64,000 nt of DNA from Patescibacteria group bacterium UBA6017 (GTDB lineage: Bacteria > Patescibacteriota > Saccharimonadia > UBA4664). Position 1 is the stretch's first letter. Each line of letters starts with the position of its first letter. The stretch covers positions 256,197-320,196 of the forward strand of contig DIZX01000015.1 in assembly GCA_002429485.1 (NCBI GenBank), in the 5' to 3' direction. Shown in pieces: positions 5,972-62,895 of the stretch. A program made the translations under genes and the position numbers. The notes beneath the pieces were generated by a model that was not told the DNA's origin, searched no databases, and worked only from the letters and a program-made list of their open reading frames with translations.

Positions 5972-6000
5972 CTGCGAGCGTGTTGCTCGCGGGGTTGGGC

Positions 6001-31757: not shown

Positions 31758-31775
31758 TGAATTGGCGCTTTCAAC

Positions 31776-33731: not shown

Positions 33732-33752
33732 CGCTAAGAAGTCCTATATCCG

Positions 33753-37243: not shown

Positions 37244-37305
37244 CTCATTACTCCCTTTTCTTGATTGTACACTCACCCCGCGGCTACGTCCGCCCCATCC
37301 CGCCG

Positions 37306-37707
37306 CTACGCCTCCGGAAGTGTTTTCGCATCCAGCACTAGGCGCTGGATATCCGTCGGCACGGTATTTTCGAATAAACCCAGCCCCTTCATGATCTCCA
37401 CGGCGTACCCCAAACGTTGGGCCTCCTCTTGCAGACGAATCTTTCCGTGCCCAGATATCCCATAATATTGGCGTTCTTTGCCCGATTTTCCGGCCGGTGC
37501 GCGCCTAATCATATCCACTAGGCCTTCTTCGCATAGGCGCTCGAGCAATGGGTATAGTTTGCCATCTTTTAGCAATACACTGCCCAATGAGGCGTTGGCG
37601 ACCGCCCCTTTTATGGCGTATCTGTGCAGCGGGCTACCCGCCAACACCAACAAAATATAAAATTCAGTGGCACTACTCGGCTTTGGGAGGTAGGAGTAAG
37701 GATACAT
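37306..37707 (-). CDS. PadR-family transcriptional regulator.
   Basis: A winged helix (HRYAIKGAV...GKLYPLLERLCEEGLV...RQYYGISGHG). A TAAAAT hexamer 8 nt before the ATG suggests a leaderless transcript. Confidence 0.75.
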   Translation of the reverse strand: MYPYSYLPKPSSATEFYILLVLAGSPLHRYAIKGAVANASLGSVLLKDGKLYPLLERLCEEGLVDMIRRAPAGKSGKERQYYGISGHGKIRLQEEAQRLGYAVEIMKGLGLFENTVPTDIQRLVLDAKTLPEA

Positions 37708-37878
37708 AGAGCGTTATTTTACTTAAAAATTTTATGCATACCAAATTTAAGTAAAATCCGGAGCAGGCATTACCAACGTATGGGCGGCGCCGGGAGTAGA
37801 GAAGTGTCCAATGTACAGCCCCCTTAAAAGATGCCTTAAACCCTTCCACCCGCATCAGTAGAGCGTATAATCAATGGC

Positions 37879-39705
<1,827 letters not shown>

Positions 39706-39735
39706 TTCGCCCTTGCCAGAGCGGATAAGCCGACC

Positions 39736-39765
39736 TTGACTATATCGCGCGAATCGGTCTAATAT
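39736..39765 (+). promoter_or_regulatory. Candidate promoter TTGACT-N18-TAATAT upstream of the small Cys-rich ORF.
   Basis: A hexamer match only. A TATCGCGC(G/A)A direct repeat at ~39742 and ~39772 overlaps or follows it. Confidence 0.3.
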
Positions 39766-39834
39766 ATCCCGTATCGCGCAACGGTTACGTCGTGCGTCGG
39801 ACGGGCTAAGGCCCACAACTTGAAGGGGAAGATC

Positions 39835-39942
39835 ATGATCGGACTGATCATGGAGTTCTTGGGCCGCTTCGGCTGCCGTTGCTACTGCGGGGGTTGCAAG
39901 GCCGACCGCCACTGCGGTGGCCCCATGTGCCATATCAGCTAG
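39835..39942 (+). CDS. Unannotated 35-aa cysteine-rich peptide (MIGLIMEFLGRFGCRCYCGGCKADRHCGGPMCHIS).
   Basis: An ATG preceded by AAGGGGAAG at 5-nt spacing. It has six Cys and two His, a TAG stop, and is followed by a hairpin. It is below the 60-aa cutoff of the ORF track. Confidence 0.4.
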   Translation: MIGLIMEFLGRFGCRCYCGGCKADRHCGGPMCHIS

Positions 39943-39966
39943 CGGCTCTGCCGCACCGCGCTACAG

Positions 39967-40010
39967 CTCCCGCCGGTGATTAACTTCACTGGCGGGAGCA
40001 TGCTATTTCC
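39967..40010 (+). terminator. Hairpin (12-bp stem, 8-nt loop) followed by a weak U-tract, downstream of the small ORF and glmS.
   Basis: CTCCCGCCGGTG-attaactt-CACTGGCGGGAG followed by catgctatttcc. Confidence 0.4.
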
Positions 40011-40183
40011 GGTGGATTGTCGAATATCTTTGTGATAGTCTGTACGTTATGAAGAGCATACGAATTCTCCTGGCAGCCTCAATTACCCAATCCGGGCTGG
40101 CGCTGCATACGTAGAAAATAGTTCACATCACCCTCGCAGCACAGCCCCGACCCCGGGGTCATTTTTATTAAGAAAGGAAGATT

Positions 40184-41482
40184 ATGCAGTTCTCGGACTT
40201 CGGCCAAAAATTTACCGCCCACTCAGGAATATTGGAGCTCATGGATGATCTGGGCCAAGCCTTGGCTACGGGCGATCAGGTGGCGATGTTTGGCGGCGGC
40301 AATCCGGCCGCCATTCCCGGCGTGCAGCGGACGATCGAAGACCACCTCACGACCCTTATGAAGCGCCCTGGCGGCGTCAATGGCTACCTGGGCAACTATG
40401 ATGTTCCCCGAGGCAACCCGGTCTTCATCGATACCGTCGTCGATTACCTCAACCGCACCATGGACTGGCAAATCACTCCGGCCCACATCGCCATTACACC
40501 TGGCAGCCAAACCGGCTTTTTCATGCTCTTTAATCTGTTGGCGGGGGACACCCAAGGCACCAAGCGCACTATCCTATTCCCGTTGGTCCCCGAGTACATT
40601 GGCTACGCCGATCAGGGCATTCAGGAGGGGATGTTTGAGGCCAACCGCCCCCGCATCGAAACCCGTGGCGAGCATACCTTCAAGTACGGCATCGACTTTG
40701 ATAACCTCAAGATCGAGCCCCATCACGCCGCCATCTGCATCTCCCGCCCCACCAACCCAAGCGGCAACGTGGTCACCGATGAAGAATTGGCGCGCCTCAG
40801 TGACCTCGCCAAGCAACACGACATCCCGTTAATTATCGATAATGCCTACGGCCTGCCTTTCCCCGGCGTCATAACCAATTCCGCCCACCTGCCAAAGTGG
40901 GACGAGCAGATGGTCTACTCCTTTAGCTTGTCGAAGGTCGGCTTGCCCAGCTCGCGTGTGGGTATCTTCGTGGCCAGGCCCGAGATCGCGGCCGCTATCA
41001 GCAAAGCCAACGCCATCCTCAGTCTCGCCAGCCCCACCCTGGGCCAGGCGCTCGGCACCTCATTGATTCAGGATGGCTCCTTGCAGCGCATTTGCCGCAA
41101 TCACATCCACCCGTACTACCGGGGCGCCGAACATTACGCCCAAACCGTGCTGGCCGAAAAATTGGCCGGCTTACCGTACCGCCTGCACGAGTATGAGGGC
41201 GCCTACTTCTTGTGGCTGTGGTTGCCGGAACTGCCGATCACCAGCAAGGAATTATATGGCCGGCTCAAAACCCGCGGGGTCATCGTGGTGCCGGGCGAGT
41301 ATTTCTTCCCCGGCCTAAACGATCCCAAGTGGGCCCATCAGCGCCAATGCCTCCGCCTCAACTTTGCCCGCCCAAAAGCCGAAGTCGACGCCGGCTTCAC
41401 CATCCTGGCCGAAGAAGTCCAGCGGGCCTATACGCAATCGTCAAAGTTATTAAATATTAATAAAAAAGCATTGATAAGTTAA
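40184..41482 (+). CDS. avtA: Valine--pyruvate aminotransferase-like class I/II PLP aminotransferase.
   Basis: MQFSDFGQKFTAHSGILELMDDLGQALATGDQVAMFGGGNPAAIPGV closely resembles the E. coli AvtA N-terminus. AAGGAAG lies before the ATG. Confidence 0.8.
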   Translation: MQFSDFGQKFTAHSGILELMDDLGQALATGDQVAMFGGGNPAAIPGVQRTIEDHLTTLMKRPGGVNGYLGNYDVPRGNPVFIDTVVDYLNRTMDWQITPAHIAITPGSQTGFFMLFNLLAGDTQGTKRTILFPLVPEYIGYADQGIQEGMFEANRPRIETRGEHTFKYGIDFDNLKIEPHHAAICISRPTNPSGNVVTDEELARLSDLAKQHDIPLIIDNAYGLPFPGVITNSAHLPKWDEQMVYSFSLSKVGLPSSRVGIFVARPEIAAAISKANAILSLASPTLGQALGTSLIQDGSLQRICRNHIHPYYRGAEHYAQTVLAEKLAGLPYRLHEYEGAYFLWLWLPELPITSKELYGRLKTRGVIVVPGEYFFPGLNDPKWAHQRQCLRLNFARPKAEVDAGFTILAEEVQRAYTQSSKLLNINKKALIS

Positions 41483-41522
41483 TAATAAGTTGATATACTG
41501 GAGACATAAATCGGAGCTCCCC

Positions 41523-41738
41523 ATGAGTGTCGTCAGTTTCTCGGTCGATAAACAAACCGAGATAGAAATCAACCAAATTGCGCTCGATGAACGCCGTTCC
41601 AAGAGTGATATTTTTCGCGATATGTACAAGTCTTACAAGTTCAACCGCACCCTATCCAAGGTCCAAAGCGTCGGCCGCGAGAGATTCTTGGCCTTGGGCA
41701 TCGAGTCAATCGATCAAGCCGAGGAATTCTTAGGCTGA
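41523..41738 (+). CDS. Putative ribbon-helix-helix antitoxin (CopG/Arc-like).
   Basis: ORF 41490..41738. The likely start is MSVVSFSVDKQTEIEINQIALDERRSKSDIF. It lies directly upstream of a PIN gene with an 8-nt gap. Confidence 0.5.
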   Translation: MSVVSFSVDKQTEIEINQIALDERRSKSDIFRDMYKSYKFNRTLSKVQSVGRERFLALGIESIDQAEEFLG

Positions 41739-41745
41739 GCCGGCT

Positions 41746-42192
41746 ATGAAACCCCTGAAGGTCGTATTTGATACCAATATCTATGTCATGGCCGCCGGCA
41801 TGCCCGGTGGTTACATTGAATATTGGATGGAACTGGTCCGACCACCCCAACTGAAATTCGAGCTGTATACCTCTCCCGCCATTTTGGCCGAGGTTCAAGA
41901 AAAATTAGAGCAAAAGCTGCAGTTTGAGCGGGCGCTGGCGGTGGACTATATTGAATCCCTTAAAACTATTGCCCGTGTGGTCAGTCCGACCATGGCATTA
42001 AACGCCGTCCCGGACGGCCCCGACGACAACCGTATCCTCGAGTGCTCACTTGAGGCTCGGGCCGACATTATTGTCTCGGCTGATAAGGATTTATTGCGCC
42101 TCAAAACCTTTGAGAGTGCGCAGATCACCCACCCGTCCAACCTTAAGTACATTTTCAAATATTTAGAGACCGAAACTAATCCCCAGACATGA
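41746..42192 (+). CDS. PIN-domain protein (putative toxin/RNase).
   Basis: KVVFDTNIYV is the PIN N-terminal acidic motif. The length is 148 aa. Confidence 0.7.
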   Translation: MKPLKVVFDTNIYVMAAGMPGGYIEYWMELVRPPQLKFELYTSPAILAEVQEKLEQKLQFERALAVDYIESLKTIARVVSPTMALNAVPDGPDDNRILECSLEARADIIVSADKDLLRLKTFESAQITHPSNLKYIFKYLETETNPQT

Positions 42193-42250
42193 CAAACCCC
42201 CGATAAAGGGCCTCGGGGGCTCGTCATCGGGGGTAGTGCGGCGGTATCGC

Positions 42251-42625
42251 CTAGTCGTCCAAGGACATCGCTCCGATAAACTGAACGGCGCTCCTGAACG
42301 CTCTCAGGGTCATCGTGACAGTTCCGTCATCACGTAGAGTGATGTCCTGGTAGGCATTTGGAATGCGCCTGTAGCAGGCGAGGAATTCCTCCGCCATCTT
42401 CTGGCTCACGTGTGGAGTGCGAGACCAGCGCATGCCGAAACCTTTGTGGTCGCCCTCGTGACCCAGCGGTTCTAGGCAGTAGGGTCCTCTAATGACTCCC
42501 GGGTGCCACATCCGCCAGCACTCATTCTTGCCGGCCCGGTCGTAGTCCTTCGAATGGGTTGTGTAGCGCTGCTCCCAATCCTCGTCGGTAACGCGCAAGG
42601 GTGCTTCTGGTGATGCAGTTGTCAT
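42251..42625 (-). CDS. Hypothetical protein (125 aa).
   Basis: ORF 42251..42793. The likely start is MTTASPEAPL at 42625, with GAGGGG 8 nt upstream and 17 nt after the stop of the upstream gene. No motif was recognised. Confidence 0.45.
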   Translation of the reverse strand: MTTASPEAPLRVTDEDWEQRYTTHSKDYDRAGKNECWRMWHPGVIRGPYCLEPLGHEGDHKGFGMRWSRTPHVSQKMAEEFLACYRRIPNAYQDITLRDDGTVTMTLRAFRSAVQFIGAMSLDD

Positions 42626-42642
42626 GGCGTGCCCCTCGTCTA

Positions 42643-43008
42643 TCAGTGAAGTTGAAGGTGTACGTTTCCTGTAGGGGCATCGGATGGAGCGACTTTGCTG
42701 AGAGCCAAGCGCACCAATCCAGCCTCGGCGGTTGATAGATGCCTTAGCCCGCGTCGCAGTTGGATGGAATCGATGATTGATCCATCCTGGCAATCAGTCC
42801 GGATATCCCAGTCCGAGTACTGGCTGATGGGTCTCCATTCCCTAGTCACGCGTTGGATCGCCCAACCGCCACTGTAGTGGAAAAGAACGCACGACTGGTT
42901 GTGTCGGCTTACTTCGATGCCTGTTACTGTCTTAACAGGTGTCTCAGTGAGCCTGTATCCATCAACCCGGTGGAGCTTTTCCAGCTCTGCTCGATGGTCG
43001 TTGGACAT
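42643..43008 (-). CDS. Hypothetical protein (121 aa).
   Basis: The ATG at 43008 has GGAG upstream. It forms a two-gene unit with 42251..42625. Confidence 0.45.
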   Translation of the reverse strand: MSNDHRAELEKLHRVDGYRLTETPVKTVTGIEVSRHNQSCVLFHYSGGWAIQRVTREWRPISQYSDWDIRTDCQDGSIIDSIQLRRGLRHLSTAEAGLVRLALSKVAPSDAPTGNVHLQLH

Positions 43009-43155
43009 AATAGGTACTCCATTCGGTCGGGGACGTGAGGAGCATCGACTATATCACTACAATACAAATAATTCTATTAGAAAAGGATATTCAGCTCATG
43101 ATTAGCGCGATCTATTCCGAGCTGGTCGGCCAAATTGTAGTTATATTGGTGGTAT

Positions 43156-44361
43156 CTAGGAGTAATCTTTTATCAGTCTCGCATAGTAATGCGCGCTCGG
43201 CCGAATCCGCCGGTTCATGGTTCTACGGTCCACCTCAATCAGCCCGAATTTTGGCCAGTAGCCCTCGTGCCATTCGAAGTTGTCGAGCAGACTCCAATAA
43301 AAATACCCGCGGCAATCTACACCTTCGCTCGTGGCTTTGGCGATGCTCTTGAGAGATTCCTCGATATACCAGCCCCGGTGTATGTCCGCCGCGTCAGCCA
43401 GGCCACTCTCTGTGATATACATCGGTTTGAGGTAGCGCGCGAGCCGGGCGAGTACTTCGTAGTGGCCCTCCGGGTGTAACTCCCAGCCCATGTCGCTTTT
43501 TTGCGCTAGCTTTCGGCGACCAAAACTGCGCTTGAGGTAAAACTGTACCCCCAGCCAATCAGAGTGCGGGGCCAACCGTTTCACGAAATAGTCGTTCGCC
43601 ACCTGCAACAATTGGTGCGTGGCTTCGAACAGTGTTTGGCTGGTACAAAAACCGACCTGAAACTCTGGATTCACCGTCTTGAGGGCTTCATAGGCCCGAA
43701 TATGAGCCTGCACCATACTGCGCCTCACCCGGGAATAACGGGTTGGACTATGCCGCTGCGGCGGCCAGATTCCTCGCACGTAGGCCATTGCCGAGGAGAC
43801 CTCGGGCTCATTGAGAGTCGTAAAGTGTGCTACATAAGGCTTCATAGCCGCGCCCATAGTGCGGGCATAATCCGCGAACCGCCGCACGACGGTCTCAGAC
43901 TCCCATCCACCCTGGGCCGCCGCCCACACCGGCAGCGTGAAGTGCCATAGCGTCACAAAGGGCTCCTGGCCATGATCCCGGCAGGCTTTGGCGACGTCGA
44001 CATAGTGGGCGATGGCCGCCTGGTCGTAAGTTCCTTCTTGGGGTTCAATCCGTGACCACTCCACCGAAAATCGGAAAGCCGTTAGACCCAGTGCTTGGGC
44101 CGTAGCCAGATCTTGAGCGTACCGAGTGTAATGCCCCGCCGCATCACCAGAGATATAGTTGGATTCAGATTTGGCCGCGGTTTTAATGTCGGGCCATACT
44201 GGTGACGGCCCTTGGCCATAACTTGTCCGATACGTGGCATTGGCCGCCAGTCCTGGGGCCGATTTCCGCTCCCACTCTGTCCAGTCATTGTGGTTGCCGC
44301 CCTCTACCTGGTGGGCCGCCGTCGCGCTTCCGAACAGAAAATTTGCGGGAAGCTTGTGCAT
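43156..44361 (-). CDS. GH1-family beta-glucosidase.
   Basis: FLFGSATAAHQVEGG, the acid/base TLNEP and the nucleophile YITESG motifs are present. Confidence 0.9.
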   Translation of the reverse strand: MHKLPANFLFGSATAAHQVEGGNHNDWTEWERKSAPGLAANATYRTSYGQGPSPVWPDIKTAAKSESNYISGDAAGHYTRYAQDLATAQALGLTAFRFSVEWSRIEPQEGTYDQAAIAHYVDVAKACRDHGQEPFVTLWHFTLPVWAAAQGGWESETVVRRFADYARTMGAAMKPYVAHFTTLNEPEVSSAMAYVRGIWPPQRHSPTRYSRVRRSMVQAHIRAYEALKTVNPEFQVGFCTSQTLFEATHQLLQVANDYFVKRLAPHSDWLGVQFYLKRSFGRRKLAQKSDMGWELHPEGHYEVLARLARYLKPMYITESGLADAADIHRGWYIEESLKSIAKATSEGVDCRGYFYWSLLDNFEWHEGYWPKFGLIEVDRRTMNRRIRPSAHYYARLIKDYS

Positions 44362-44369
44362 GGCCGGTG

Positions 44370-46178
44370 CTAATCCTCGCTCGCCGGCCGAATGTGCGTC
44401 ACATGCGCCGGGCTGAGGCGGAACAGCCCCTCGTCCAAACGAACCTGGTCGAAGTAGTGGGCCATAAAGCCGACCGATCGCGACAAAATAAATAGCGAGT
44501 TGAAGAATTCGGTGGCCGCCAGCGCTTCAAGTTGCTCGATCGAATAGCCTTCTTTTTCGGCCAACAAGTCCAGTAAGATGGCCGCCATGGCGCCATCCAC
44601 GTTCAGGATCAGATTACCCTTTTTGCGGGTAGTTTCGGCTTCCACACCCAGTGCAAATTTGGTGAACTTAGCCTGTTCCAGGCCGTCAACGAAGGTCAGT
44701 AATTTGGCCACGCGGGGGTCGGGGGAGTCGATACGGTATTTCTTGTGCCCTATGCCCAGAATGTAGCGCTTGTCGGCCGCGTAGGCCTCCACCAGCGCCG
44801 TGGGGGATACGCCAGTACTCACGCCTTCGAGCCAGGTCAGTGCGGCTTGGTTGACCGCTCCGCCGAAACGCGGGCCGATCGTGAGCAGTCCCGCCGCCAA
44901 AGAGCTCACCAGATCGCGCCCGGCCCTCGCCGTCACGATGGTATTGACCGCCCCCGACACGTACGGACCGTGATCGACTAGCAGTTTGAGTACATAATCC
45001 ACGAAGGCTTCGAGCTCGGCCGAGTGCACTTGCTTGCCCAAAAACATCGAGATTACAATTTTAGCGAAGGAATTATTGTCGGCCAAATCGAGTAGACTTT
45101 GATCCAGCACCTGGACCTCGCCGTCACCCATATCGTGCGAGATGGAGCTGGCTATTAGGCCGGCCTTGCGAGCCGACATGGCTTTGATCACCGGCGCCAG
45201 GTCGGCGGCCTCGACCGCTCCCGGCAATTCGGCCACGTACTGCGCAAACTCAGCAAAGGTGGTCGCACTCTTGGCGCCCGCCGCGCGCAAGGCGTCGCTC
45301 TTGGCCCGCGCCGATTCATCCACACTGGCTGCCATGGCCTTAGCATGGCCAAACTGCGGCGGCGTCTCAAACAGCTCGGCCACCGTGCCGGCGATGTAGG
45401 CCACCACCGGCTTGGTTACTGCGCCGCTGGAGATCATCTCCGCCAGCTCGTATTCATCGCGCCCGCCCAGCTCGCCGAAGTACACAATTGAAGTAGTTGC
45501 TGGGTCGGCCTCTGCCGCCGCAAACACCTCCTGCGGCGAGCTCATCGGAAACCGTTCGCCGCCCAACGCCAGCGAAAAGCTCAACGCGTGGCCGGTGGTG
45601 GCCACCAGCCGAATAATCTCACTCACCATGCCGCCGCTCGAGCTCACCACTGCTACCGAGCCGGACGTAAATAGCTTCGAATTCACCAGCTGTGGCGCCT
45701 GCACTCCGCCGATCGGACCGAGCTTCACCACGCCCGGTACTACTATGCCTACGCTGGCCCCGCCCGCTAGCCACACTCCTGCCGCGTTGGCCGTTTCGGC
45801 CAGCTCCAGCGCGTGCTTTTCGGGTAACCCTTCCGCGAACACCACCCCGCCCACCAGGGCTGGCAGTGCCTCGATGGCCTGCTTCGACGACGCCAATACT
45901 CGCCGCCCCGACGATAAGTTCAAAAATAAGTTCACCTGCTCGCTCAAGCTCGTTGGCAGCCGTCCCACGGCCGAATACACCGGTATCGTCACTTCATTTT
46001 CGCCAAAGAAGTAGCGCTCGCTTTTGCGCCCCGTAGCCACTATCGCCACTACCGACGGCGCGGTGCGACCCGCCAAAAAGTCGAAATCCAGTATCGATTG
46101 AATAATACCTTTGGAGCTTCCCAGAGCCACAATCTTGGGATCAAGCGCCCGCAGAGCTGAAATATTTAGTGTACTCAC
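44370..46178 (-). CDS. aclA: ATP-citrate lyase alpha subunit (CoA-binding/phosphohistidine domain plus citryl-CoA lyase domain).
   Basis: PPQFGHAKAM matches the ACLY catalytic His loop (QFGHAGA). GIGHKKYRIDSPDPRV matches the ACLY/citrate-synthase-like GIGHRVKSINNPDMRV. The length is 602 aa. Confidence 0.8.
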   Translation of the reverse strand: MSTLNISALRALDPKIVALGSSKGIIQSILDFDFLAGRTAPSVVAIVATGRKSERYFFGENEVTIPVYSAVGRLPTSLSEQVNLFLNLSSGRRVLASSKQAIEALPALVGGVVFAEGLPEKHALELAETANAAGVWLAGGASVGIVVPGVVKLGPIGGVQAPQLVNSKLFTSGSVAVVSSSGGMVSEIIRLVATTGHALSFSLALGGERFPMSSPQEVFAAAEADPATTSIVYFGELGGRDEYELAEMISSGAVTKPVVAYIAGTVAELFETPPQFGHAKAMAASVDESARAKSDALRAAGAKSATTFAEFAQYVAELPGAVEAADLAPVIKAMSARKAGLIASSISHDMGDGEVQVLDQSLLDLADNNSFAKIVISMFLGKQVHSAELEAFVDYVLKLLVDHGPYVSGAVNTIVTARAGRDLVSSLAAGLLTIGPRFGGAVNQAALTWLEGVSTGVSPTALVEAYAADKRYILGIGHKKYRIDSPDPRVAKLLTFVDGLEQAKFTKFALGVEAETTRKKGNLILNVDGAMAAILLDLLAEKEGYSIEQLEALAATEFFNSLFILSRSVGFMAHYFDQVRLDEGLFRLSPAHVTHIRPASED

Positions 46179-47365
46179 GCTGTTACCTCCAGCTCTTTTA
46201 TCGCCAACGGAATAATCGCCGCCAGCATCATTTCCGGCCCCGCTACCTCCCCCAGCAATCCTTCTCGCTCCAGGAAGCTGCGCATCATTGCCAGCCCCTC
46301 AACTTCGAACGGACCGCCCCGACGCACAAATACCTTGATACCTTGCTCGCGCATGGCCGCTTTGGCCTCGTCCAGCGCCGCAAGCACACCCTTGAACGTC
46401 GCCCGCACGTCGGTGAAGTTGGCTACTCCGCCGGCAATCACCAGCACCTTGCGCGGCGCCTTAGATTCGAGCATCAGCGAAATAATCTGCCGTGTGTAAA
46501 TTTGGGTTTCCTCGGCATTAGGGTTGCCGCTGTACTCACCGTAATTACCCAGTTCTTTGCCGCGCCCCTGATTAAACACCTCGTCCGCCAGCGCCACGCT
46601 CGCCCCGCCGCCGCTCAGTAGCAAGAAAATATTGCCCTGCGGGTTCAGTACCGCCAGCCGAAATGACGCCTGGCTTTGAGACGCCAGCTCTTCCACGGCC
46701 GCCGCCTGAGGCAGCGGAGCTGATGCCGTATAATCGCGAAAATCTTCCGGCGTCCAGCGTCCGTCCACAAAGAAGGCCGCCTCGGTATCTACCTCCACCG
46801 CCGCATCGAGTAGGCCCACTTTGCCGTCCATCACTACCAACGGGTTCACTTCCAAAAATGACCAGTAGTTATCATTAAAGGTCTTGGCGAGGAGCTGAAG
46901 TGTGTCCGTTGATACTCCCAGCGCCTCAGCCGCCCGTCCGGCTACCTCGGTCGTAAATACCGCCTGGCGAATTCCGTCCGCCGCATCTTCCACATTTACC
47001 CCGCCGGCCGCCGACCAGCTAATAATCGTGCCCGCCCGTTGGCGTTCGAACGCCAAATACCGTTCGGAATCTGCTGCGTGGTCCATCTGCGGCTCCACTA
47101 ACATAAATTCAAAACCCTTCGCCGCCAGCTCGGCGATATCGCCGCTCACTTCGGCTTTGGTGCGGCCCAGCTTCACCAGCCCCTTTTTGAAGCGCCCCTT
47201 CACTCCTTGATCCACTTTCACCACGTAGCTGCCGCCAGCCGCCAGCGAGTCCACCGTGGACTGCCAGTTGGCCTTCAGATCTATACTCACACCGCTATAA
47301 GCCGTGCCTAGTTCTTTAGCGAGGATTGTTTTGGCTCTGAATTCGGAAATTTTCTTGCGCGGCAT
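46175..47365 (-). CDS. aclB: ATP-citrate lyase beta subunit (ATP-grasp).
   Basis: ORF 46175..47449. The likely start is MPRKKISEFRAKTILAKEL at 47365, which parallels the ACLY N-terminus (KAISEQTGKELLYKF ... VVKPDQLIKRRGKLGL). A TATAAT lies ~26 nt upstream. Confidence 0.75.
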   Translation of the reverse strand: MPRKKISEFRAKTILAKELGTAYSGVSIDLKANWQSTVDSLAAGGSYVVKVDQGVKGRFKKGLVKLGRTKAEVSGDIAELAAKGFEFMLVEPQMDHAADSERYLAFERQRAGTIISWSAAGGVNVEDAADGIRQAVFTTEVAGRAAEALGVSTDTLQLLAKTFNDNYWSFLEVNPLVVMDGKVGLLDAAVEVDTEAAFFVDGRWTPEDFRDYTASAPLPQAAAVEELASQSQASFRLAVLNPQGNIFLLLSGGGASVALADEVFNQGRGKELGNYGEYSGNPNAEETQIYTRQIISLMLESKAPRKVLVIAGGVANFTDVRATFKGVLAALDEAKAAMREQGIKVFVRRGGPFEVEGLAMMRSFLEREGLLGEVAGPEMMLAAIIPLAIKELEVTA

Positions 47366-47433
47366 GGATTCTTCTCTACTTACGACAGGTATTATACCGT
47401 GATGGGTACTTAAATGTGCCATAATACTTACAT

Positions 47434-49227
47434 ATGGTGAAACCTTCAAGCGACTTCCTCGAAGACGAGGACACTGGGCAATCCGAACTCAGCTCGCAGT
47501 GGCAGCGTGCTCCGCTGTGGCTTCGTGGGGTCGGCTTAATCTTTGTTGGCGGGTTCTTGTTGGTGGGTAGCTTTGAGCTGGTCTACGCCGGTAAGATCTA
47601 TCCGGGCATTTCCGCCGATGGCGTTTCGCTGGCTGGTGCCACCCGGGCTTCCGCTGCCAAACAGCTCAATTCCAAAATTGATACCTTTTCCGGCGGCGTT
47701 GTCACCATCTCGAATGGCGACACCAATCTCCGCATCCCCGTGGCCGGTCTCGACGTGTCCTATGACACCAACAAAGCCGTCGATCTGGCCTACCAATACG
47801 GGCGCGAGGGGAGTTGGACCAACCGGCTTCATCAGCAATTACGCGCCCTTCTGGGCCGGGCAACCAACTTTTCGGCCTACGGCTATTCCGATACCCGTTT
47901 GGCCCCCTACGTGGTTCAGCTTGGCGATGATTTATCCACGCCGGTAGCCGACGCCAGCCTAAACTTTGACTCCGACAAGCCCCAGGTCACCCCGGCGCAG
48001 TCCGGCACCCGCCTCGATTATGGCCGCCTCACTCAGCTCGTTGGCGACCGGCTGTCCCAAACCTCTATCGACCCGATCCCCGCGCCCGTCTACCAGCTCT
48101 CGCCGGTCCTCGGCACCGATGCTCTCACGGCCGTCACCAACCAACTCGGCAGCTACCTGGCCGGTCCCATCACCCTCAGCTACAGCGGCACCGAAACCAC
48201 CATCGATCAGAAGACTATCATTTCGTGGATCCAGGTCGGCGCCCGCCCCACGAAGTTATTCCTTAACTCTCACGACCTAGCCGATTTATACCCGCCGCCG
48301 GCCGCGGCCAATCTGGGCTTGAGCAAGCCCGCCGTCGCCAAGTACGTTACCGATCTGGCGGCTCAGCTCGACCAAACGCCCCAAAACTCCGGCTTGGCCA
48401 TGAAGGACGGCGTGCTGGCTATCGTGCAGGCCAGCCGCACCGGCATCAAGCTCGATCAAGCCGACACTACCAGTGCCATCATCGGCAGCCTGGGTCGCAC
48501 CTCCGGCGACCGCCTCATCACTCTCAAGCTCGAGACCACCCAAGCCGCCGTCAACGAGTCTAATCTCGACTCGCTCGGCATCAAGGAGCAAATCTCGGAG
48601 GGCGAAACCTACTTCCCCGGCTCACCCAGCACCCGCCTCACCAACGTCCGCGCCGGCGCCAAGCGCTTCAATGGCGTCTTGCTGGCTCCCGGCGAAACCT
48701 TTTCCTTCGGCAAGCTCCTCGGCGCCGTCGACGCTTCCACCGGTTACGTCCCCGAACTCGTCATCCTCGGTGACCATGAGGAAAAGCAGTATGGCGGGGG
48801 ACTCTGCCAGGTATCGTCCACCGCTTTCCGCGCTGCTTTGGCTGCGGGCCTGCCCATTACCGAGCGCGTCAATCACGCTTTCGCCATTAGTTATTACACC
48901 TGGCCCTACACCGTCCCCGGTATGGACGCCACGATTTATTACCCCGCCGTTGATCTCAAATTCACCAACGATACCGGCAGTTACATCCTTATGCAGACCA
49001 TTATGAATGGTGTCGATCTCAAGTTTGACTTCTTTGGTACCAAAACTAAGACCGGCGTCATTCGCGGCCCCAACTTCGTCACTGGTACGAACGACGCCAC
49101 CCAACCTTCGCACACCGTCTTCTACCGTGACGTGCTCGACCTCGCAGGCAACGTCACCAAGACCGACACCTTCAATACCTACTACAAGTCGAGCAAGGAC
49201 TTCCCGGTTACCAAACAGTTCAACTAA
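47434..49227 (+). CDS. VanW-domain protein with an N-terminal membrane anchor.
   Basis: GGGLCQVSSTAFRAALAAGLPITERVNHAF...YPAVDLKF is VanW-like. A TM segment is present near the N-terminus. Confidence 0.8.
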   Translation: MVKPSSDFLEDEDTGQSELSSQWQRAPLWLRGVGLIFVGGFLLVGSFELVYAGKIYPGISADGVSLAGATRASAAKQLNSKIDTFSGGVVTISNGDTNLRIPVAGLDVSYDTNKAVDLAYQYGREGSWTNRLHQQLRALLGRATNFSAYGYSDTRLAPYVVQLGDDLSTPVADASLNFDSDKPQVTPAQSGTRLDYGRLTQLVGDRLSQTSIDPIPAPVYQLSPVLGTDALTAVTNQLGSYLAGPITLSYSGTETTIDQKTIISWIQVGARPTKLFLNSHDLADLYPPPAAANLGLSKPAVAKYVTDLAAQLDQTPQNSGLAMKDGVLAIVQASRTGIKLDQADTTSAIIGSLGRTSGDRLITLKLETTQAAVNESNLDSLGIKEQISEGETYFPGSPSTRLTNVRAGAKRFNGVLLAPGETFSFGKLLGAVDASTGYVPELVILGDHEEKQYGGGLCQVSSTAFRAALAAGLPITERVNHAFAISYYTWPYTVPGMDATIYYPAVDLKFTNDTGSYILMQTIMNGVDLKFDFFGTKTKTGVIRGPNFVTGTNDATQPSHTVFYRDVLDLAGNVTKTDTFNTYYKSSKDFPVTKQFN

Positions 49228-49245
49228 ATCCCTCTAGCAAAACGC

Positions 49246-49274
49246 TTGACACTACGGCTTTTGTTCGGTAAACT
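49246..49274 (+). promoter_or_regulatory. Candidate lexA promoter TTGACA-N17-TAAACT, with a GTTCGGTAAAC element overlapping the -10 as a possible operator.
   Basis: Hexamer matches only. The operator assignment is speculative. Confidence 0.3.
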
Positions 49275-49304
49275 TTAATCAAGTTAAGCCTGGGAGGGTA
49301 ACCG

Positions 49305-56960: not shown

Positions 56961-57355
56961 AGCCCTAGTTTGACGGCAATAAAGTACGTCGCCGTCGAGA
57001 CCGCTGCCGCCAACATTACTCCCCAGGCCATATCAACAACCGTTAGTAGCACCGGCCAGTTCTTGAGCGTAGCCAGATTGGTTAGATCATAGGTCGCATA
57101 TGTGATCAGTCCGAACGCGGCCCCGTACCACAGCGCGTGCGTCCATGAGCCAGCCTTAATGGCGGGCAAGATAACGAATAACACCATCCCAGCAAGAAAC
57201 AGCAGGTAGAACACCACTGCCGCCGTTCGGTTGATATCGCTTTTAATCAACATGCCAATTTGGCTGGCGTAAAAATTCTTGGCTACCACCCCGATCCAGA
57301 GCATATCGAGGGCAAAGAATACCGGCAGCGCAATAAGGTAGAGTTTCCAAAACAT
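56957..57355 (-). CDS. Small membrane protein, DUF2177-like.
   Basis: MFWKLYLIALPVFFALDMLWIGVVAKNFY... has 4 TM segments. Confidence 0.45.
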   Translation of the reverse strand: MFWKLYLIALPVFFALDMLWIGVVAKNFYASQIGMLIKSDINRTAAVVFYLLFLAGMVLFVILPAIKAGSWTHALWYGAAFGLITYATYDLTNLATLKNWPVLLTVVDMAWGVMLAAAVSTATYFIAVKLGL

Positions 57356-58907: not shown

Positions 58908-58957
58908 ACCTCAATTATAGCAACACGCCCCTTTAATACTATCCGAAGCCAGATTGC

Positions 58958-58985
58958 TTGACATTATAAGCATAAAGACTATAAT
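58958..58985 (+). promoter_or_regulatory. Consensus sigma70 promoter TTGACA-N16-TATAAT.
   Basis: TTGACA at 58958..58963 and TATAAT at 58980..58985, in an AT-rich flank. An AAGGAG Shine-Dalgarno sequence lies 6 nt before the ATG at 59047. Confidence 0.65.
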
Positions 58986-59046
58986 AGTATATTCGCTAGG
59001 CATTATCCCTGCAGCACCCGGCACGACCTCGACGAAGGAGCTTCAC

Positions 59047-59622
59047 ATGTTCAACCAGACATCCGGCCTCACTTTGGCCGTGTCAACGACTGACTTCAGC
59101 CGGAACTACCCCCACCTCACCGCAGCCCAGCAGGCCGACCCCGAAGCCCTCCGCCCTCTCCTGCGGCTTCCCCGAACCCCGGACCCCGTCGATCCCGACA
59201 ACTTTGCCGAGATGATGGTTCTTCGGGCATCGAGGATCTCCAGGACACTCTGGTCCGCGTTCCGGGGCGACACCGGTCTTGGCTCCGACAACTTCCAGGA
59301 GTGGGAGAGCCTCTCTCTCCCCGACCTGCTGAAGCGCCGCGTCTTCGACGATCAGCGTCTCGAGGACCCCGACGTGATGAAGTCGCTTCTCGCGACTATC
59401 GAGCAAGGGCTGGAGTACCTCGGAACACCTTCCGAGCCGTTCTTCACCCACTGGCACGGAGACTCCGACATGTTCCTCATGCCGATCCGCAACGTCTCCT
59501 CGGGCCAGATCCGTGGCCTGACCCTCGTCCTGGGCTCCAACCCCGAGTTCGACCTCCGCGAGGAGGGCGACGAGGAGGACGCCACCGTCCGAAGCATGTT
59601 GGCCCAACTCAAGGCCGCCTGA
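59047..59622 (+). CDS. Hypothetical protein (191 aa) in a high-GC ORF.
   Basis: ORF 58954..59622. The likely start is MFNQTSGLTLAVS at 59047. G/C at codon position 3 is visibly higher than in neighbouring genes. The antisense ORF 59083..59625 is judged an artefact. Confidence 0.5.
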   Translation: MFNQTSGLTLAVSTTDFSRNYPHLTAAQQADPEALRPLLRLPRTPDPVDPDNFAEMMVLRASRISRTLWSAFRGDTGLGSDNFQEWESLSLPDLLKRRVFDDQRLEDPDVMKSLLATIEQGLEYLGTPSEPFFTHWHGDSDMFLMPIRNVSSGQIRGLTLVLGSNPEFDLREEGDEEDATVRSMLAQLKAA

Positions 59623-59658
59623 CACGATCAGGCCGCCTCAAGCGCCGACTACGCCTTG

Positions 59659-59713
59659 CTGGCAGACCTTCCCCCTTTCGGGGAGAGGGTCTGCCAGCTC
59701 TTTTTATTTTCGA
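59659..59713. terminator. Strong intrinsic terminator between convergent genes.
   Basis: The stem CTGGCAGACC ... GGTCTGCCAG encloses an inner CCCC-tttc-GGGG hairpin and is followed by CTCTTTTTATTTT. Confidence 0.75.
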
Positions 59714-60760
59714 TCAATTATGCCGAAATGGATGCCCGGGCTTATCATTTAGCAACTGGCCAAGAATCTTGGTAATACGCTCATTCGAATCTTCTAGCCT
59801 CAGTTGGTGCTCAGTACCCTCATTCAGCTCCAGCAAGATTTTATCCCGCGCCAGCCTTAGCTCTTCCGCCTTTCGCACTAGTCCCTGCTCATAGAATTCT
59901 CGCTGCAGCACCGCCACGGCCAGGAATATGCCGCTCATGGACAAAATAGCCATGTTCAACAGGGTCACGAACTGTTGCTGTGAAGTTCCGAATCCTGCAA
60001 ATGGCCCGCTGGCGCCCGCCACGCCCGACACCGTGACAACCGAAGCAATCATACTCACCGCCGTCACGCCCAACTGTTTGAACCTAAAGGCCGCCCATAT
60101 AATCAACGGGAAGATCAGATACTCCAGATCGTTACCCTGAGGTTTGAATTGCCAAAACAAAAAGACCACGCCAATTGCTAGTGTACTGAAAAGCAGGGCC
60201 GCAAATTCCTTCCACTGCTTCCGGTCTAACTGCCGCCAAGCATCGTGCCAGACAAACAAGAATGGTGCGAACATCAATACCCCCGCCGTGTCTCCGACCC
60301 ACCAGAGGAGCCATGACGTCCAGAAGGCGCTCCATGGTAACGCGCCGCCGACAATCAGGCTGGTAGTGCCGATTGTTGCCCCCAGCATAGTGCTGAAAAT
60401 GGCTGCACCGACAATCAAGCCAACCACGCTGCCAACATTAGTCAGCGCCGGCCTGAAATGTACTAATCGCCTCAGTATTATGGCACCAAATGCCGCTTCA
60501 ATCGTGCTTCCTATGGCTATTCCTAGCGAGATCCCAGCCGGCTCGTTCGACAACAGGTTCGCCAGCAAAGCTCCAAAGAATACACCGGGCCACACCTTGG
60601 GGCCGTATAAAAATAGTGCCACCAGCGCTAGCGCGGTGGGAGCCCCGACCGTAATAATATTGTGAACAGTCAACGCCAACGACAAGCCGATCATCACGGT
60701 TACAACATAAAGCCCAGTCAGTATCAGCACCGTAAGTAGATATCGTGGCTTTATCTTCAT
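59714..60760 (-). CDS. Polytopic membrane protein with a C-terminal coiled coil (MASE1-like sensor domain, no output domain).
   Basis: ~8 TM segments and a Trp-rich TM region (WTSWLLWWVGD). The C-terminus reads EELRLARDKILLELNEGTEHQLRLE. Confidence 0.4.
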   Translation of the reverse strand: MKIKPRYLLTVLILTGLYVVTVMIGLSLALTVHNIITVGAPTALALVALFLYGPKVWPGVFFGALLANLLSNEPAGISLGIAIGSTIEAAFGAIILRRLVHFRPALTNVGSVVGLIVGAAIFSTMLGATIGTTSLIVGGALPWSAFWTSWLLWWVGDTAGVLMFAPFLFVWHDAWRQLDRKQWKEFAALLFSTLAIGVVFLFWQFKPQGNDLEYLIFPLIIWAAFRFKQLGVTAVSMIASVVTVSGVAGASGPFAGFGTSQQQFVTLLNMAILSMSGIFLAVAVLQREFYEQGLVRKAEELRLARDKILLELNEGTEHQLRLEDSNERITKILGQLLNDKPGHPFRHN

Positions 60761-61806: not shown

Positions 61807-62274
61807 TCAGAGAGCCCCATCAATAAGTTGCAGCTTGATTGCGTCAATTAATCCCGGCTCGATATCTCGTACAGCCGTTTTATCGTAGTGATGGGCAAAA
61901 TTCGGGTCCTCAAACACCACACCGTTCACTACCGGTGCCGTTTGGTAACGAGGCCAAATGTGCAGGTGAAGGTGAGGGTCAGGGGAGTCACTTTTGTAGG
62001 CATTATTCATCAGTGCGGTCCAGTTGAAGCAGGTTGCATCAAATACTTTCGTCGCTGTTTCCTCAAACCGCCTGACTACTTCCCCGAGCTCAGCCCACTC
62101 ATCCGGCGTAAGTGAGCTCAAGTGCCCAGCATGGCGCTTCAAATTGACGTACGATCGTCCCAGATACGCTTGGTTTGGAGCCAGATCAACCTTCCAATAC
62201 TTAGTCTCAAACAGGGTGAGATTATCTTGTGCTAAGGCAGAGCAGCTATTGCAGGTCGAGGGCGTGTTATTCAT
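61807..62274 (-). CDS. HIT-family nucleotide hydrolase/transferase.
   Basis: The histidine triad HLHLHIWPR is present. Confidence 0.8.
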   Translation of the reverse strand: MNNTPSTCNSCSALAQDNLTLFETKYWKVDLAPNQAYLGRSYVNLKRHAGHLSSLTPDEWAELGEVVRRFEETATKVFDATCFNWTALMNNAYKSDSPDPHLHLHIWPRYQTAPVVNGVVFEDPNFAHHYDKTAVRDIEPGLIDAIKLQLIDGAL

Positions 62275-62292: not shown

Positions 62293-62895
62293 TTATCGCT
62301 TTACCTTATGCCGTTTGCTCGCCAGCCAGTCCGGTACTTCGGAGAATCTAACCTCTTCCCAGCCGTCGATTTCTTCTTCAGTAACATCGTAAACTGCCTG
62401 ATAGGCTGGCTCTACGCTCCCGTGAAGGGCCTTTCTTTCATCTAGCCCGAGCTTTTTCGCCGCCTCGTAAAGCGATTTACTATCTTTAGCCTCAAGCTCA
62501 ACGAAGCTAGGTATCCACGGCCAAGAGTCGAGCTCGATTTCAACCGCCCCAAGCTTCCAGCTTTCCCTTTTAGTCTCTTGGAGTGATTTCGACTCGAGAC
62601 CAATCGCGTACAAAAAGGCGCACGTCGCATCGAAATCTGTCACAGTTACCGTTACTTCTTGCGTTCCGTGGAGGGTCCGATCGTTTACCTGCTTGTAGCT
62701 GAGCGTTATTCTCTCGCCTTCATCCCGAACCCTCACCCAGCCGCCAACTTCGCCGAGGCGTTTATCGGGATAATCAAACACCCGACGCACCATTTTTCGT
62801 TCAGGTGCAACCAATTCTGCCCCGGCACTCTTGAGGATATCTCGAAAGGCCACGTGATCGATATTCAGCCACTTAGCTTCTATTTCAGTTTCCAT
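62293..62895 (-). CDS. CYTH-domain protein (triphosphate tunnel metalloenzyme / class IV adenylate cyclase-like).
   Basis: The N-terminal EIEAKW (ExExK) motif is present. The length is 200 aa. Confidence 0.7.
   Translation of the reverse strand: METEIEAKWLNIDHVAFRDILKSAGAELVAPERKMVRRVFDYPDKRLGEVGGWVRVRDEGERITLSYKQVNDRTLHGTQEVTVTVTDFDATCAFLYAIGLESKSLQETKRESWKLGAVEIELDSWPWIPSFVELEAKDSKSLYEAAKKLGLDERKALHGSVEPAYQAVYDVTEEEIDGWEEVRFSEVPDWLASKRHKVKR

What the first reader, a model, noticed from the sequence alone, without database searches (positions are those of the whole stretch)
58958..59713. A high-GC ORF sits in an idealised expression cassette (consensus promoter, AAGGAG Shine-Dalgarno, strong terminator).
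An exact TTGACA-N16-TATAAT in an AT-rich flank, an AAGGAG 6 nt before the ATG, and a 191-aa ORF whose third-position GC is visibly higher than its neighbours. It is followed by a compound GC-rich hairpin plus a T-tract terminator. The protein (MFNQTSGLTLAVSTTDFSRNYPHL...) has no recognisable motif. The compositional contrast and the idealised signals suggest a horizontally acquired, highly expressed gene. The antisense ORF 59083..59625 is an artefact.
Basis: seen in the sequence. Interest (0 to 1): 0.55.

Follow-up and report, generated by a model that had tools for sequence, protein, structure and literature searches.

The report
Fast-evolving orphan gene, self-contained cassette
A small gene of unknown function in an uncultured Saccharimonadia (TM7-type) bacterium carries its own near-perfect on and off switches, which relatives have kept while the protein changed almost beyond recognition; it is a real but fairly ordinary orphan gene, not a recent foreign import.

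Summary
There is an exact TTGACA-N16-TATAAT promoter (58958-58985), an AAGGAG 6 nt before the ATG, a 191-codon ORF (59047-59622; GC 0.64, GC3 0.84, the highest in the window), and a strong hairpin plus T-run terminator (59658-59710).

The protein has no detectable homologue among about 15 billion proteins and matches no family, and its predicted structure is unusable.

The closest available relative, a Candidatus Saccharimonadia MAG (L006), has a cassette at the same site. It shares the promoter position, the Shine-Dalgarno context and the terminator hairpin, and its ORF is also exactly 191 codons and also the GC-richest gene locally. The two proteins are only about 25% identical, against 75-95% for nine neighbouring genes (dN 0.95 against 0.03-0.18). 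Their collinear similarity still exceeds chance (z 5.1; 0 of 5000 shuffles). A third lineage (L024) bridges the two N-termini.

This is therefore a vertically retained, autonomously transcribed orphan gene that evolves very fast but is kept open. It is not a recent horizontal acquisition: no donor, mobility marks, or phage or plasmid match was found. High expression is inferred, not shown. Function is unknown; a rapidly changing interaction is my best guess. Interest is modest.

The parts
58958..58985 (+). Sigma-70-type promoter: TTGACA (58958-58963), 16-nt spacer, TATAAT (58980-58985). The predicted transcription start is near 58992.
   Evidence: It is a 12/12 match, with 0.012 expected per window. 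The position and 16-nt spacer are kept in four lineages: window TTGACA/TATAAT, L006 TTGATT/TATACT, L013 TTGACT/TATAAT, L024 TTGATT/TATAAT. The start site is inferred, not mapped.
58986..59046 (+). Leader of about 55 nt with the Shine-Dalgarno AAGGAG at 59035-59040, 6 nt before the ATG.
   Evidence: The blocks ATTCG, ACGRCCT and GAYGAAGGAGCTT are conserved in the window, L006 and L024. Promoter-to-ATG identity with L006 is 85% over aligned bases. No conserved RNA structure was found (-3 kcal/mol, no covariation) and there is no Rfam match.
59047..59622 (+). Protein-coding gene of 191 aa (21.5 kDa, pI 4.6, no Cys). It has no signal peptide or transmembrane segment on inspection and is predicted mostly helical. 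It is an orphan, fast-evolving gene.
   Evidence: GC1/2/3 of 0.64/0.44/0.84 is the coding pattern. It is the only frame open in both orthologues. Gene callers predict 191 aa in both genomes (P0001, P0027). Homologue searches found only the query itself. The positional orthologue in L006 is about 25% identical. Its global alignment score is 11, against -62 +/- 14 for shuffles (z 5.1, 0 of 5000) and at most -14 for 75 unrelated real segments. dN is 0.95 against 0.03-0.18 for neighbours.
59623..59657 (+). GC-rich 3' untranslated stretch with a small weak hairpin. It is longer than in L006.
   Evidence: Shown by the fold of 59620-59720 and by the alignment with L006, which has insertions here.
59658..59710 (+). 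Intrinsic terminator: an 18-nt-arm GC-rich hairpin (59658-59675 and 59681-59698), then TTTTTATTTT (59701-59710). It ends 4 nt before the stop codon of the convergent MASE1 gene at 59714.
   Evidence: Supported. The hairpin arms GCTGGCAGACCT / GGGTCTGCCAGC are identical in L006, where the loop region is shorter. There is no T-run on the minus-strand side, so it is a one-way terminator for the plus-strand gene.

Best explanation
Window 58958-59710 is a self-contained, monocistronic transcription unit made of a promoter, a leader with a strong Shine-Dalgarno, a 191-codon gene and an intrinsic terminator. The host is an uncultured Candidatus Saccharimonadia (CPR/TM7-type) bacterium.

The unit is inherited vertically within a small clade. 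Its regulatory shell is under purifying selection. The protein evolves roughly 5-30 times faster at nonsynonymous sites than its neighbours, close to the neutral rate, yet it is kept open and at the same length. That pattern means the translated product is selected while most of its sequence is free or driven to change.

The orphan status results from divergence beyond what sequence searches can detect, not from recent import.

Mechanistic guess (inference, about 30% likely): a soluble, largely helical cytoplasmic protein, made at a high level from its own promoter, whose binding partner changes quickly. The partner could be part of a host-epibiont or phage-bacterium conflict interface, or the protein could be a lineage-specific regulator.

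The elevated GC3 is shared by both orthologues, so it is actively maintained. The likeliest cause is selection for C/G-ending codons in a strongly expressed gene; GC-biased repair or recombination is an alternative.
For: Shown:
- The signals are exact and statistically unusual.
- The closest relative L006 (HTS 78% identical) carries, between the same neighbours and divergent from the same 132-aa membrane gene, an ORF of exactly 191 codons with the same promoter position, the same GAAGGAGCTT-N3-ATG context and the same terminator arms.
- blastn aligns only the two flanks. The alignable DNA stops within a few bases of the start and stop codons.
- Protein identity is about 25%, against 75-95% for nine neighbouring genes.
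- dN is 0.95 against 0.03-0.18. dS is about 1.3, similar to most neighbours (0.5-3.6, one not computable), so the apparent dN/dS is about 0.7.
- Homology is still demonstrable. The global score is z 5.1, reached by 0 of 5000 shuffles and by none of 75 unrelated real segments, and reversed sequences score -51.
- A constant +6 residue offset links the motifs F..NY and D.RL.D......LL......LE..G.
- Helices predicted for L006 from its sequence alone coincide with those of the window protein after the +6 shift.
- The L024 fragment MFNTKSAHRKLARARFPLG shares MFN with the window protein and NT..K...FPL with L006.
- Only the sense frame is open in both orthologues.
- Both orthologues are the GC-richest and GC3-richest genes of their neighbourhoods.
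- Five contigs from five samples carry the ORF with a single SNP (L24F), so the gene is stable within the population.

Inferred:
- At a silent-site divergence of at least about 1.3 substitutions per site, a non-selected 573-nt ORF should have collected many stop codons and frameshifts.
- My composition-based estimate of the chance that a random sequence of this composition stays open for 191 codons is about 0.006 per lineage (own arithmetic, not a tool result).
Against: - No expression data exist, so 'highly expressed' rests on consensus signals alone.
- Only two full-length members and one 19-codon fragment are known. Rates come from one saturated pairwise comparison on an uncertain alignment, so positive selection cannot be separated from relaxed constraint.
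- Local alignment alone is not convincing: BLASTP E = 9, local z 2.5, and the tblastn hit at the ORF is not the best hit in the window.
- The codon log-odds of the ORF against the genome model are low (0.06-0.10 against about 0.25 for controls), and the model cannot separate sense from antisense.
- Both AlphaFold models have low confidence (pLDDT 38.6 and 36.7). This is compatible with a poorly folded or young protein.
- There is no neighbouring toxin, defence or secretion gene to support the conflict-interface guess.
Confidence: 0.62

Rival explanations
1. Recent horizontal acquisition of a highly expressed foreign gene. A high-GC donor gene would have been inserted with its own promoter and terminator.
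For: It has the highest GC and GC3 in the window. Its expression signals are self-contained. Its Shine-Dalgarno is atypically strong for a genome in which many genes look leaderless or lack one. Its codon log-odds against the genome model are low. This architecture matches the moron description (PMC3594210).
Against: The same cassette sits at the same site, with conserved flanks, in L006, L024 and, for the promoter, L013. The GC enrichment is shared by the orthologue. No donor homologue exists among about 15 billion proteins. There is no phage, plasmid or IMG/VR match. There are no repeats, tRNA genes or integrase. An ancient transfer into the common ancestor cannot be excluded.
Confidence: 0.1
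2. A fixed expression slot with swapped content. The conserved promoter and terminator would act as recombination anchors, and unrelated ORFs would be exchanged between them in different lineages.
For: DNA similarity collapses almost exactly at the start and stop codons. Two metagenome contigs break at or just inside the cassette: L013 at the -10 box and L024 78 nt into the ORF. That is what strain-variable regions do to assemblies. The pI flips from 4.6 to 8.4 between the orthologues.
Against: The collinear similarity is far above chance and above unrelated real proteins. Both ORFs have the identical length of 191 codons. The motif offset is consistent (+6) and the predicted helices match. 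L024's N-terminus is intermediate between the other two. There is no variation among five population contigs.
Confidence: 0.1
3. The protein sequence is not the functional part. What would be selected is transcription or translation through the region, or the GC-rich RNA itself, and the ORF would be a proto-gene with almost no sequence constraint.
For: The apparent dN/dS is about 0.7. The structure predictions have very low confidence. There are no homologues. The flanks are better conserved than the body.
Against: The ORF is kept open at identical length in two lineages despite saturated silent divergence. The Shine-Dalgarno and start context are conserved. The GC1 > GC2 < GC3 periodicity appears in both. 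Residual protein-level similarity exists. No Rfam match or conserved RNA structure was found.
Confidence: 0.13
4. The real gene is the antisense ORF 59083-59625 on the minus strand (180 aa), as one automated annotation called it.
For: In contig L005 the gene caller chose the antisense ORF. The codon log-odds of the antisense frame are as high as those of the sense frame.
Against: The antisense frame is open for only 101 codons in L006. It has no promoter or Shine-Dalgarno and would start inside the terminator. The same log-odds ambiguity appears for the bona fide GlmS gene. The conserved Shine-Dalgarno plus ATG serve the sense ORF.
Confidence: 0.02

Closest known systems
Taxonomically restricted (orphan) genes explained by rapid divergence, or 'homology detection failure' (Weisman, Murray and Eddy 2020, PMC7660931)
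   Same: There is no detectable homologue by sequence search. Even so, a positional orthologue is identifiable through conserved synteny and flanks, with residual collinear similarity. The evolutionary rate is far above that of the neighbours.
   Different: Here the whole regulatory shell is conserved while the coding body is nearly saturated. Both orthologues keep exactly 191 codons and an elevated GC3. The family has only two full members, so the rate-based test of that paper cannot be applied formally.
Phage 'morons': independent transcription units with their own promoter and terminator and a deviant GC content (Cumby, Davidson and Maxwell 2012, PMC3594210)
   Same: A single gene is bracketed by its own sigma-70 promoter and intrinsic terminator. 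[quoted passage not shown]
   Different: It is not in a phage or prophage: the neighbours are cellular genes and there is no PHROG, INPHARED or IMG/VR match. It is retained at the same chromosomal site in related lineages rather than being an obvious addition. Its composition is not explained by recent transfer.
Rapidly evolving conflict-interface proteins, such as immunity, antitoxin or anti-defence proteins and secreted effectors (general knowledge, not tested as a family)
   Same: It is a small soluble protein with extreme sequence turnover but a preserved reading frame, and it has strong autonomous expression.
   Different: There is no partner toxin, defence gene or secretion signal nearby. 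No PADLOC hit was found, and positive selection has not been demonstrated.

Membership tests
Phage moron | Own promoter and own terminator forming an independent transcription unit | tested here: met
   The promoter is a 12/12 match and the hairpin plus T-run terminator has z -5.9. Both are conserved in relatives.
Phage moron | [quoted passage not shown] | tested here: met
   GC is 0.64 and GC3 0.84, against 0.46-0.55 and 0.53-0.66 for the flanking genes.
Phage moron | Located inside a phage or prophage genome | tested here: not met
   The neighbours are SDR, TspO, DUF2177, DUF1295, an ABC transporter, MASE1, HTS, HIT and CYTH genes. There is no PHROG hit and no match in phage records or IMG/VR.
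Phage moron | Appears as extra DNA compared with otherwise collinear relatives | tested here: inconclusive
   It is present in the window, L006 and L024, and the promoter is present in L013. Relatives lacking it (L023, L015, L018, L014, L020, L022, L025) are not collinear on that side of the membrane gene.
Recently acquired genomic islet (horizontal transfer) | Absent from the same site in related genomes | tested here: not met
   An orthologous cassette sits at the same site in L006, and partly in L024 and L013.
Recently acquired genomic islet (horizontal transfer) | Homologues in a plausible donor lineage | tested here: not met
   Searches found only the query and its orthologue: 5.8 billion clusters and 1.84 billion representatives with full phmmer. 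tblastn against phages and plasmids gave nothing.
Recently acquired genomic islet (horizontal transfer) | Mobility marks: integrase or transposase, flanking direct repeats, adjacent tRNA | tested here: not met
   There are no meaningful flanking repeats, no tRNA in the window and no mobility domains among the neighbours.
Recently acquired genomic islet (horizontal transfer) | Atypical base composition and codon usage | tested here: met
   GC3 z is 2.7, the highest of 47 ORFs. However, the orthologue shares the trait, and a 19-kb block in the window reaches 0.80.
Fast-evolving taxonomically restricted gene (homology detection failure) | No sequence-detectable homologue outside a narrow clade | tested here: met
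Fast-evolving taxonomically restricted gene (homology detection failure) | Positional orthologue defined by conserved synteny and flanks | tested here: met
Fast-evolving taxonomically restricted gene (homology detection failure) | Residual similarity above chance between the positional orthologues | tested here: met
   The global score is 11 against -62 +/- 14, reached by 0 of 5000 shuffles. The best of 75 unrelated real segments scores -14.
Fast-evolving taxonomically restricted gene (homology detection failure) | Evolutionary rate much higher than that of the neighbouring genes | tested here: met
   dN is 0.95 against 0.03-0.18, and amino-acid identity is 25% against 75-95%. This is a single saturated pair, so it is approximate.
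Targeted hypermutation locus (for example a DGR target) | Sequence variability within a population, plus a nearby template repeat and reverse transcriptase | tested here: not met
   Five contigs from five samples differ by one SNP in the ORF. No template-like repeat lies within 1.8 kb, and there is no reverse transcriptase among the neighbours.

The most novel reading that the evidence does not exclude
The cassette could be a conserved 'expression slot' for a protein locked in an arms race specific to the epibiotic lifestyle of Saccharimonadia, for example a factor delivered to or sensed by the host bacterium or targeted by phage. Diversifying selection would then have erased the sequence while the length, termini (MxN... 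/ ...LK(K)AA) and regulatory shell stayed fixed. The persistently high GC3 would mark an unusual process confined to this transcription unit, either expression-linked codon selection or GC-biased repair.
Probability: 0.12. Interest if true: 0.65.

Novelty: new member of a known kind. Interest (0 to 1): 0.33.

Why it matters
The case is a clean, small example of how an apparent ORFan with 'foreign' composition can be an old resident gene. Its orthologue was found only through conserved flanks and synteny, not through any protein search.

For CPR/Saccharimonadia biology it flags a strongly signalled, lineage-specific protein retained in a reduced genome. That makes it a reasonable candidate for a lifestyle-specific function.

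It also documents canonical consensus sigma-70 promoters, at least one strong Shine-Dalgarno and probable widespread leaderless genes in this lineage. These observations are useful for annotation and for building expression tools.

It does not by itself reveal a new mechanism.

Tried and rejected
- Genome scan with the adjacent MASE1 protein found no confirmed locus. The HTS neighbour then gave L006.
- Two metagenome-collection scans found nothing: one used the membrane-protein alignment, the other the conserved promoter-to-SD DNA pattern. That collection evidently lacks the JGI contigs that carry the gene. More loci came from exact-protein look-ups instead.
- A profile search with both orthologues found no further members.
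- Pfam, NCBIfam, PHROGs, PADLOC and a PDB sequence profile gave nothing below E = 0.1.
- AlphaFold2 gave pLDDT 38.6 with the 2-sequence alignment and 36.7 for the orthologue alone. I therefore ran no fold search, since matches to such models are meaningless.
- Rfam at gathering and at E-value thresholds returned only a spurious EBER2 hit on the terminator hairpin.
- RNAalifold on the leader found no conserved structure.
- I asked whether the two perfect-promoter cassettes in the window share a leader. Only the promoter hexamers align.
- I asked whether L006's protein matches another reading frame of the window ORF, which would indicate compensated frameshifts. It does not.
- A codon log-odds model trained on the window cannot separate sense from antisense in high-GC3 genes. 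The GlmS control fails in the same way, so I did not use it as evidence.
- A functional link to the divergent 132-aa membrane gene was rejected. That gene occurs in seven other lineages with unrelated upstream neighbours.
- A literature search for Saccharibacteria transcriptome data on hypothetical genes returned nothing relevant.
Full report
**Observation**

The -35 TTGACA lies at 58958-58963, followed by a 16-nt spacer and the -10 TATAAT at 58980-58985, a 12/12 match. AAGGAG lies at 59035-59040, 6 nt before the ATG at 59047. The ORF ends with TGA at 59620-59622 and encodes 191 aa. The terminator has 18-nt arms at 59658-59675 and 59681-59698, followed by TTTTTATTTT. The 101-nt 3' region folds at -45.6 kcal/mol, with z -5.9 and 0 of 200 shuffles folding as well.

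An exact consensus promoter is expected 0.012 times in the window by composition. The ORF has GC 0.641 and GC1/2/3 of 0.64/0.44/0.84. The 46 other ORFs have mean GC3 0.61 +/- 0.085 and a maximum of 0.80, so z is 2.7 and the ORF is the highest in the window. AAGGAG is the only full 6-mer Shine-Dalgarno among 48 ORF starts inspected.

Two caveats apply. A second perfect promoter exists at 6486-6457 on the minus strand. The window is also compositionally heterogeneous, with GC3 of 0.65-0.80 across 30.6-49.2 kb.

**Which frame is the gene**

The sense frame shows the GC3 > GC1 > GC2 pattern of a high-GC coding region. The antisense ORF 59083-59625 is its mirror-image shadow: its codon position 1 coincides with sense position 3. 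In the relative L006 only the sense frame is fully open, and the antisense frame is open for just 101 codons. The TTG at 58954 that JGI used to call a 222-aa product lies inside the -35 box and is not credible.

**Orphan status**

- No Pfam or NCBIfam hit appears even at E <= 10.
- PHROGs and PADLOC give nothing for the window protein. The orthologue has only marginal PHROG and Pfam matches at E 0.1-0.2.
- A PDB profile search gives nothing better than E = 0.1.
- The word-indexed search of 5.8 billion clusters returns only the protein itself.
- A full phmmer search of 1.84 billion representatives of about 15 billion proteins also returns only the protein itself.
- Five metagenome contigs from five samples carry it. 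They are 99.6-100% identical to the window, with one SNP in the ORF: 59116 C>T, giving L24F.

**Organism and comparative context**

A genome scan with the neighbouring homoserine O-succinyltransferase (HTS) found a 'Candidatus Saccharimonadia bacterium' MAG as the closest relative (L006, JBBRSS010000011.1, 78% identity). The next hits are about 50-55% identical and come from other phyla.

L006 is collinear with the window over this run of genes: CYTH, HTS, [cassette], 132-aa membrane protein, SDR, TspO, DUF2177, DUF1295, ABC-2 permease, ABC ATPase. It lacks the MASE1 and HIT genes.

At the cassette position L006 has an ORF on the same relative strand, and several features match the window:
- 'agcataaagactata' spans the spacer and the -10 box.
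- 'gaaggagctt-N3-ATG' is conserved at the start.
- The terminator arms 'gctggcagacct ... gggtctgccagc' are identical and are followed by a T-run.
- From the Shine-Dalgarno-proximal ATG the ORF is again exactly 191 codons. The public gene call (P0027) is also 191 aa.

blastn aligns only the two flanks (window 58969-59049 and 59630-59709) plus one 21-nt collinear seed. Promoter-to-ATG identity is 85% and the terminator region is 89% identical over aligned bases.

Two further lineages have membrane proteins 87% identical to the window's. L024 has the same promoter (TTGATT-N16-TATAAT), leader and Shine-Dalgarno, then the first 19 codons MFNTKSAHRKLARARFPLG before the contig ends. L013 ends exactly at its -10 box, with TTGACT-N16-TATAAT.

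More distant carriers of the membrane gene have unrelated upstream neighbours. These include an HExxH-motif protein, a 109-aa protein, FMN_red plus a probable tRNA gene (read from the sequence, not scanned), a repeat protein and others. The cassette is therefore confined to a small clade and is not functionally tied to the membrane gene.

**Are the two ORFs homologous?**

BLASTP sees nothing (E = 9). The global BLOSUM62 alignment, however, scores 11, far above every control:

| Comparison | Score |
|---|---|
| Window ORF against L006 ORF | 11 |
| 5000 shuffles | -62 +/- 14 (z 5.1; none reaches 11) |
| 75 unrelated real 191-aa segments from the window | at most -14 |
| Reversed sequences | -51 |

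Other evidence agrees:
- The alignment is collinear, with a constant +6 offset joining F..NY near the N-terminus to D.RL.D......LL......LE..G in the middle. Both proteins end in LK(K)AA.
- Helices predicted for L006 from its sequence alone are at 86-94, 97-100 and 102-118. After the +6 shift these coincide with window helices at 91-100, 103-106 and 108-124. The only region with pLDDT above 50 is the same in both.
- L024's N-terminus shares MFN with the window protein and NT..K...FPL with L006.

I conclude, at about 85% confidence, that these are orthologues diverged in place and not swapped unrelated genes.

**Rate**

| Measure | ORF | Nine neighbouring genes |
|---|---|---|
| Amino-acid identity, window against L006 | 25% | 75-95% |
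| dN | 0.95 | 0.03-0.18 |
| dS | about 1.3 | 0.5-3.6 (one not computable) |

The apparent dN/dS is about 0.7 for the ORF and roughly 0.05-0.12 for the neighbours. The numbers are rough because this is a single pair, silent sites are saturated and the alignment is uncertain. The contrast is nonetheless large.

The reading frame has survived with identical length, the start context is conserved, and only this frame is open in both lineages. By my own arithmetic from base composition, a random sequence of this composition stays open for 191 codons with probability about 0.006. Selection therefore maintains a translated product while tolerating or driving almost any sequence change. Within the sampled population the gene is invariant apart from one SNP, so there is no ongoing hypermutation.

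**Composition**

The L006 orthologue is also the GC-richest gene of its neighbourhood: 0.61 GC and 0.72 GC3, against 0.45-0.55 and 0.51-0.67. A recent import cannot explain a contrast shared by two lineages whose protein sequences have since diverged to 25%. Something maintains it.

In the window ORF, C is preferred over T at third positions (0.86) as strongly as in the GlmS gene, and G over A at 0.78, close to the window maximum. That pattern is compatible with selection for C/G-ending codons in well-expressed genes, but no ribosomal-protein genes lie in the window to test this. GC-biased repair or recombination is an alternative. This point is unresolved.

**Against mobility or foreign origin**

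- There is no tblastn match in 50,697 phage records or 72,556 plasmids.
- Neither the profile nor the DNA pattern matches anything in IMG/VR.
- There are no flanking direct repeats, no tRNA genes and no mobility genes among the neighbours.
- The promoter and terminator modules are unique within the window and the fetched loci.

**Function**

Nothing in the sequence, structure prediction or gene context assigns a function.
- The window protein is acidic (pI 4.6, no Cys), whereas its orthologue is basic (pI 8.4).
- Neither has a signal peptide or hydrophobic segment on inspection.
- Both have Pro-rich, probably disordered N-terminal thirds and helical remainders.

My committed but weak inference (about 0.3) is that this is a soluble, abundantly made protein whose partner changes quickly. 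It could sit at a host-epibiont or phage conflict interface, or act as a lineage-specific regulator. The conserved C-terminal LK(K)AA might be a recognition or degradation tag. That idea rests on a recalled resemblance to ssrA-like 'LAA' tails and has not been tested.

**Comparison with known kinds**

In architecture the cassette is moron-like: own promoter, own terminator and deviant GC (PMC3594210). It fails the defining requirement of lying in a phage. In evolution it fits the class of lineage-specific genes produced by rapid divergence and homology-detection failure (PMC7660931), here exposed by conserved flanks. It is a new, uncharacterised protein family with two full members and one fragment, within a known kind of phenomenon.

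**Verdict**

Novelty: new member of a known kind. Interest: about 0.33.

Noticed in passing
window 5935-6486, minus strand: A second 'idealised' cassette lies here. It has a perfect TTGACA-N18-TATAAT (6486-6457), a 133-aa ORF at 6001-6402 (GC 0.59, GC3 0.73; weak sub-threshold Cupin_2 and Polysacc_synt_C hits), then a GC hairpin plus T-run (about 5985-5935). That makes two perfect 12/12 promoters in 64 kb where 0.012 are expected. Its leader is unrelated to that of ORF191.
   Followed up: partly
window 1679-2368, plus strand: An 11/12 promoter (TTGACA-N17-TACAAT) ends about 6 nt before an ATG that opens a short VapB-like ORF (MNISQQLTIRGVDKTTKKSLEARARQRG...). A PIN-domain (VapC-like) ORF follows at 1913-2368. 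This is probably a leaderless toxin-antitoxin pair.
   Followed up: partly
window 58908-58919, minus strand; also upstream of ORF starts at 27277-28563, 37879, 47434, 62293-62895 and others: Many genes have a TATAAT-like box 4-8 nt before the start codon and no Shine-Dalgarno. For the 132-aa membrane gene this TATAAT-N6-start arrangement is conserved in L006. Leaderless mRNAs therefore seem common in this Saccharimonadia genome, which makes the full AAGGAG of ORF191 stand out. The scan used mechanical ORF starts.
   Followed up: partly
window 44370-47449, minus strand: Two adjacent genes carry ATP-citrate-lyase-type domains: Citrate_bind plus an ATP-grasp domain, and Ligase_CoA plus Citrate_synt. 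From my own knowledge this is unexpected for a reduced CPR genome. They lie in the higher-GC3 block at 30.6-49.2 kb.
   Followed up: no
window 7500-30000 against 30600-49300: There is marked compositional heterogeneity. GC3 is 0.46-0.60 in the first block and 0.65-0.80 in the second. GC skew is negative nearly throughout the profiled 54-64 kb stretch, and across the window plus-strand genes are C3-rich while minus-strand genes are G3-rich.
   Followed up: no
window 57205-57221 (DUF2177 gene): Six clustered substitutions within 17 nt are shared by contigs L002 and L003, in sequence that is otherwise about 100% identical. This looks like a short recombination tract or a multi-nucleotide event.
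   Followed up: no
L013:1-20 and L024:1-80: Two independent metagenome contigs end at the -10 box of the cassette promoter or 57 nt into the ORF. Assemblies seem to break where the variable ORF begins, which hints at strain-level heterogeneity in those samples.
   Followed up: no
L014:1241-2008: A related Saccharimonadia contig encodes a heliorhodopsin next to DUF2177 and DUF1295 genes. These are the same families that flank the membrane gene in the window, alongside TspO and SDR, which may point to a light- or pigment-related gene neighbourhood.
   Followed up: no
L005:1974-2516, and JGI product P0002: Public gene calls for this locus disagree. They give 191 aa (sense), 222 aa (sense, from a TTG inside the -35 box), 136 aa (in the frameshift-ridden contig L003) and 180 aa (antisense).
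   Followed up: yes
window 59714-60760, minus strand: A MASE1 membrane sensor domain protein has only a short coiled C-terminal tail and no recognisable output domain. It is absent from the collinear relative L006, as is the HIT gene at 61807-62274.
   Followed up: no
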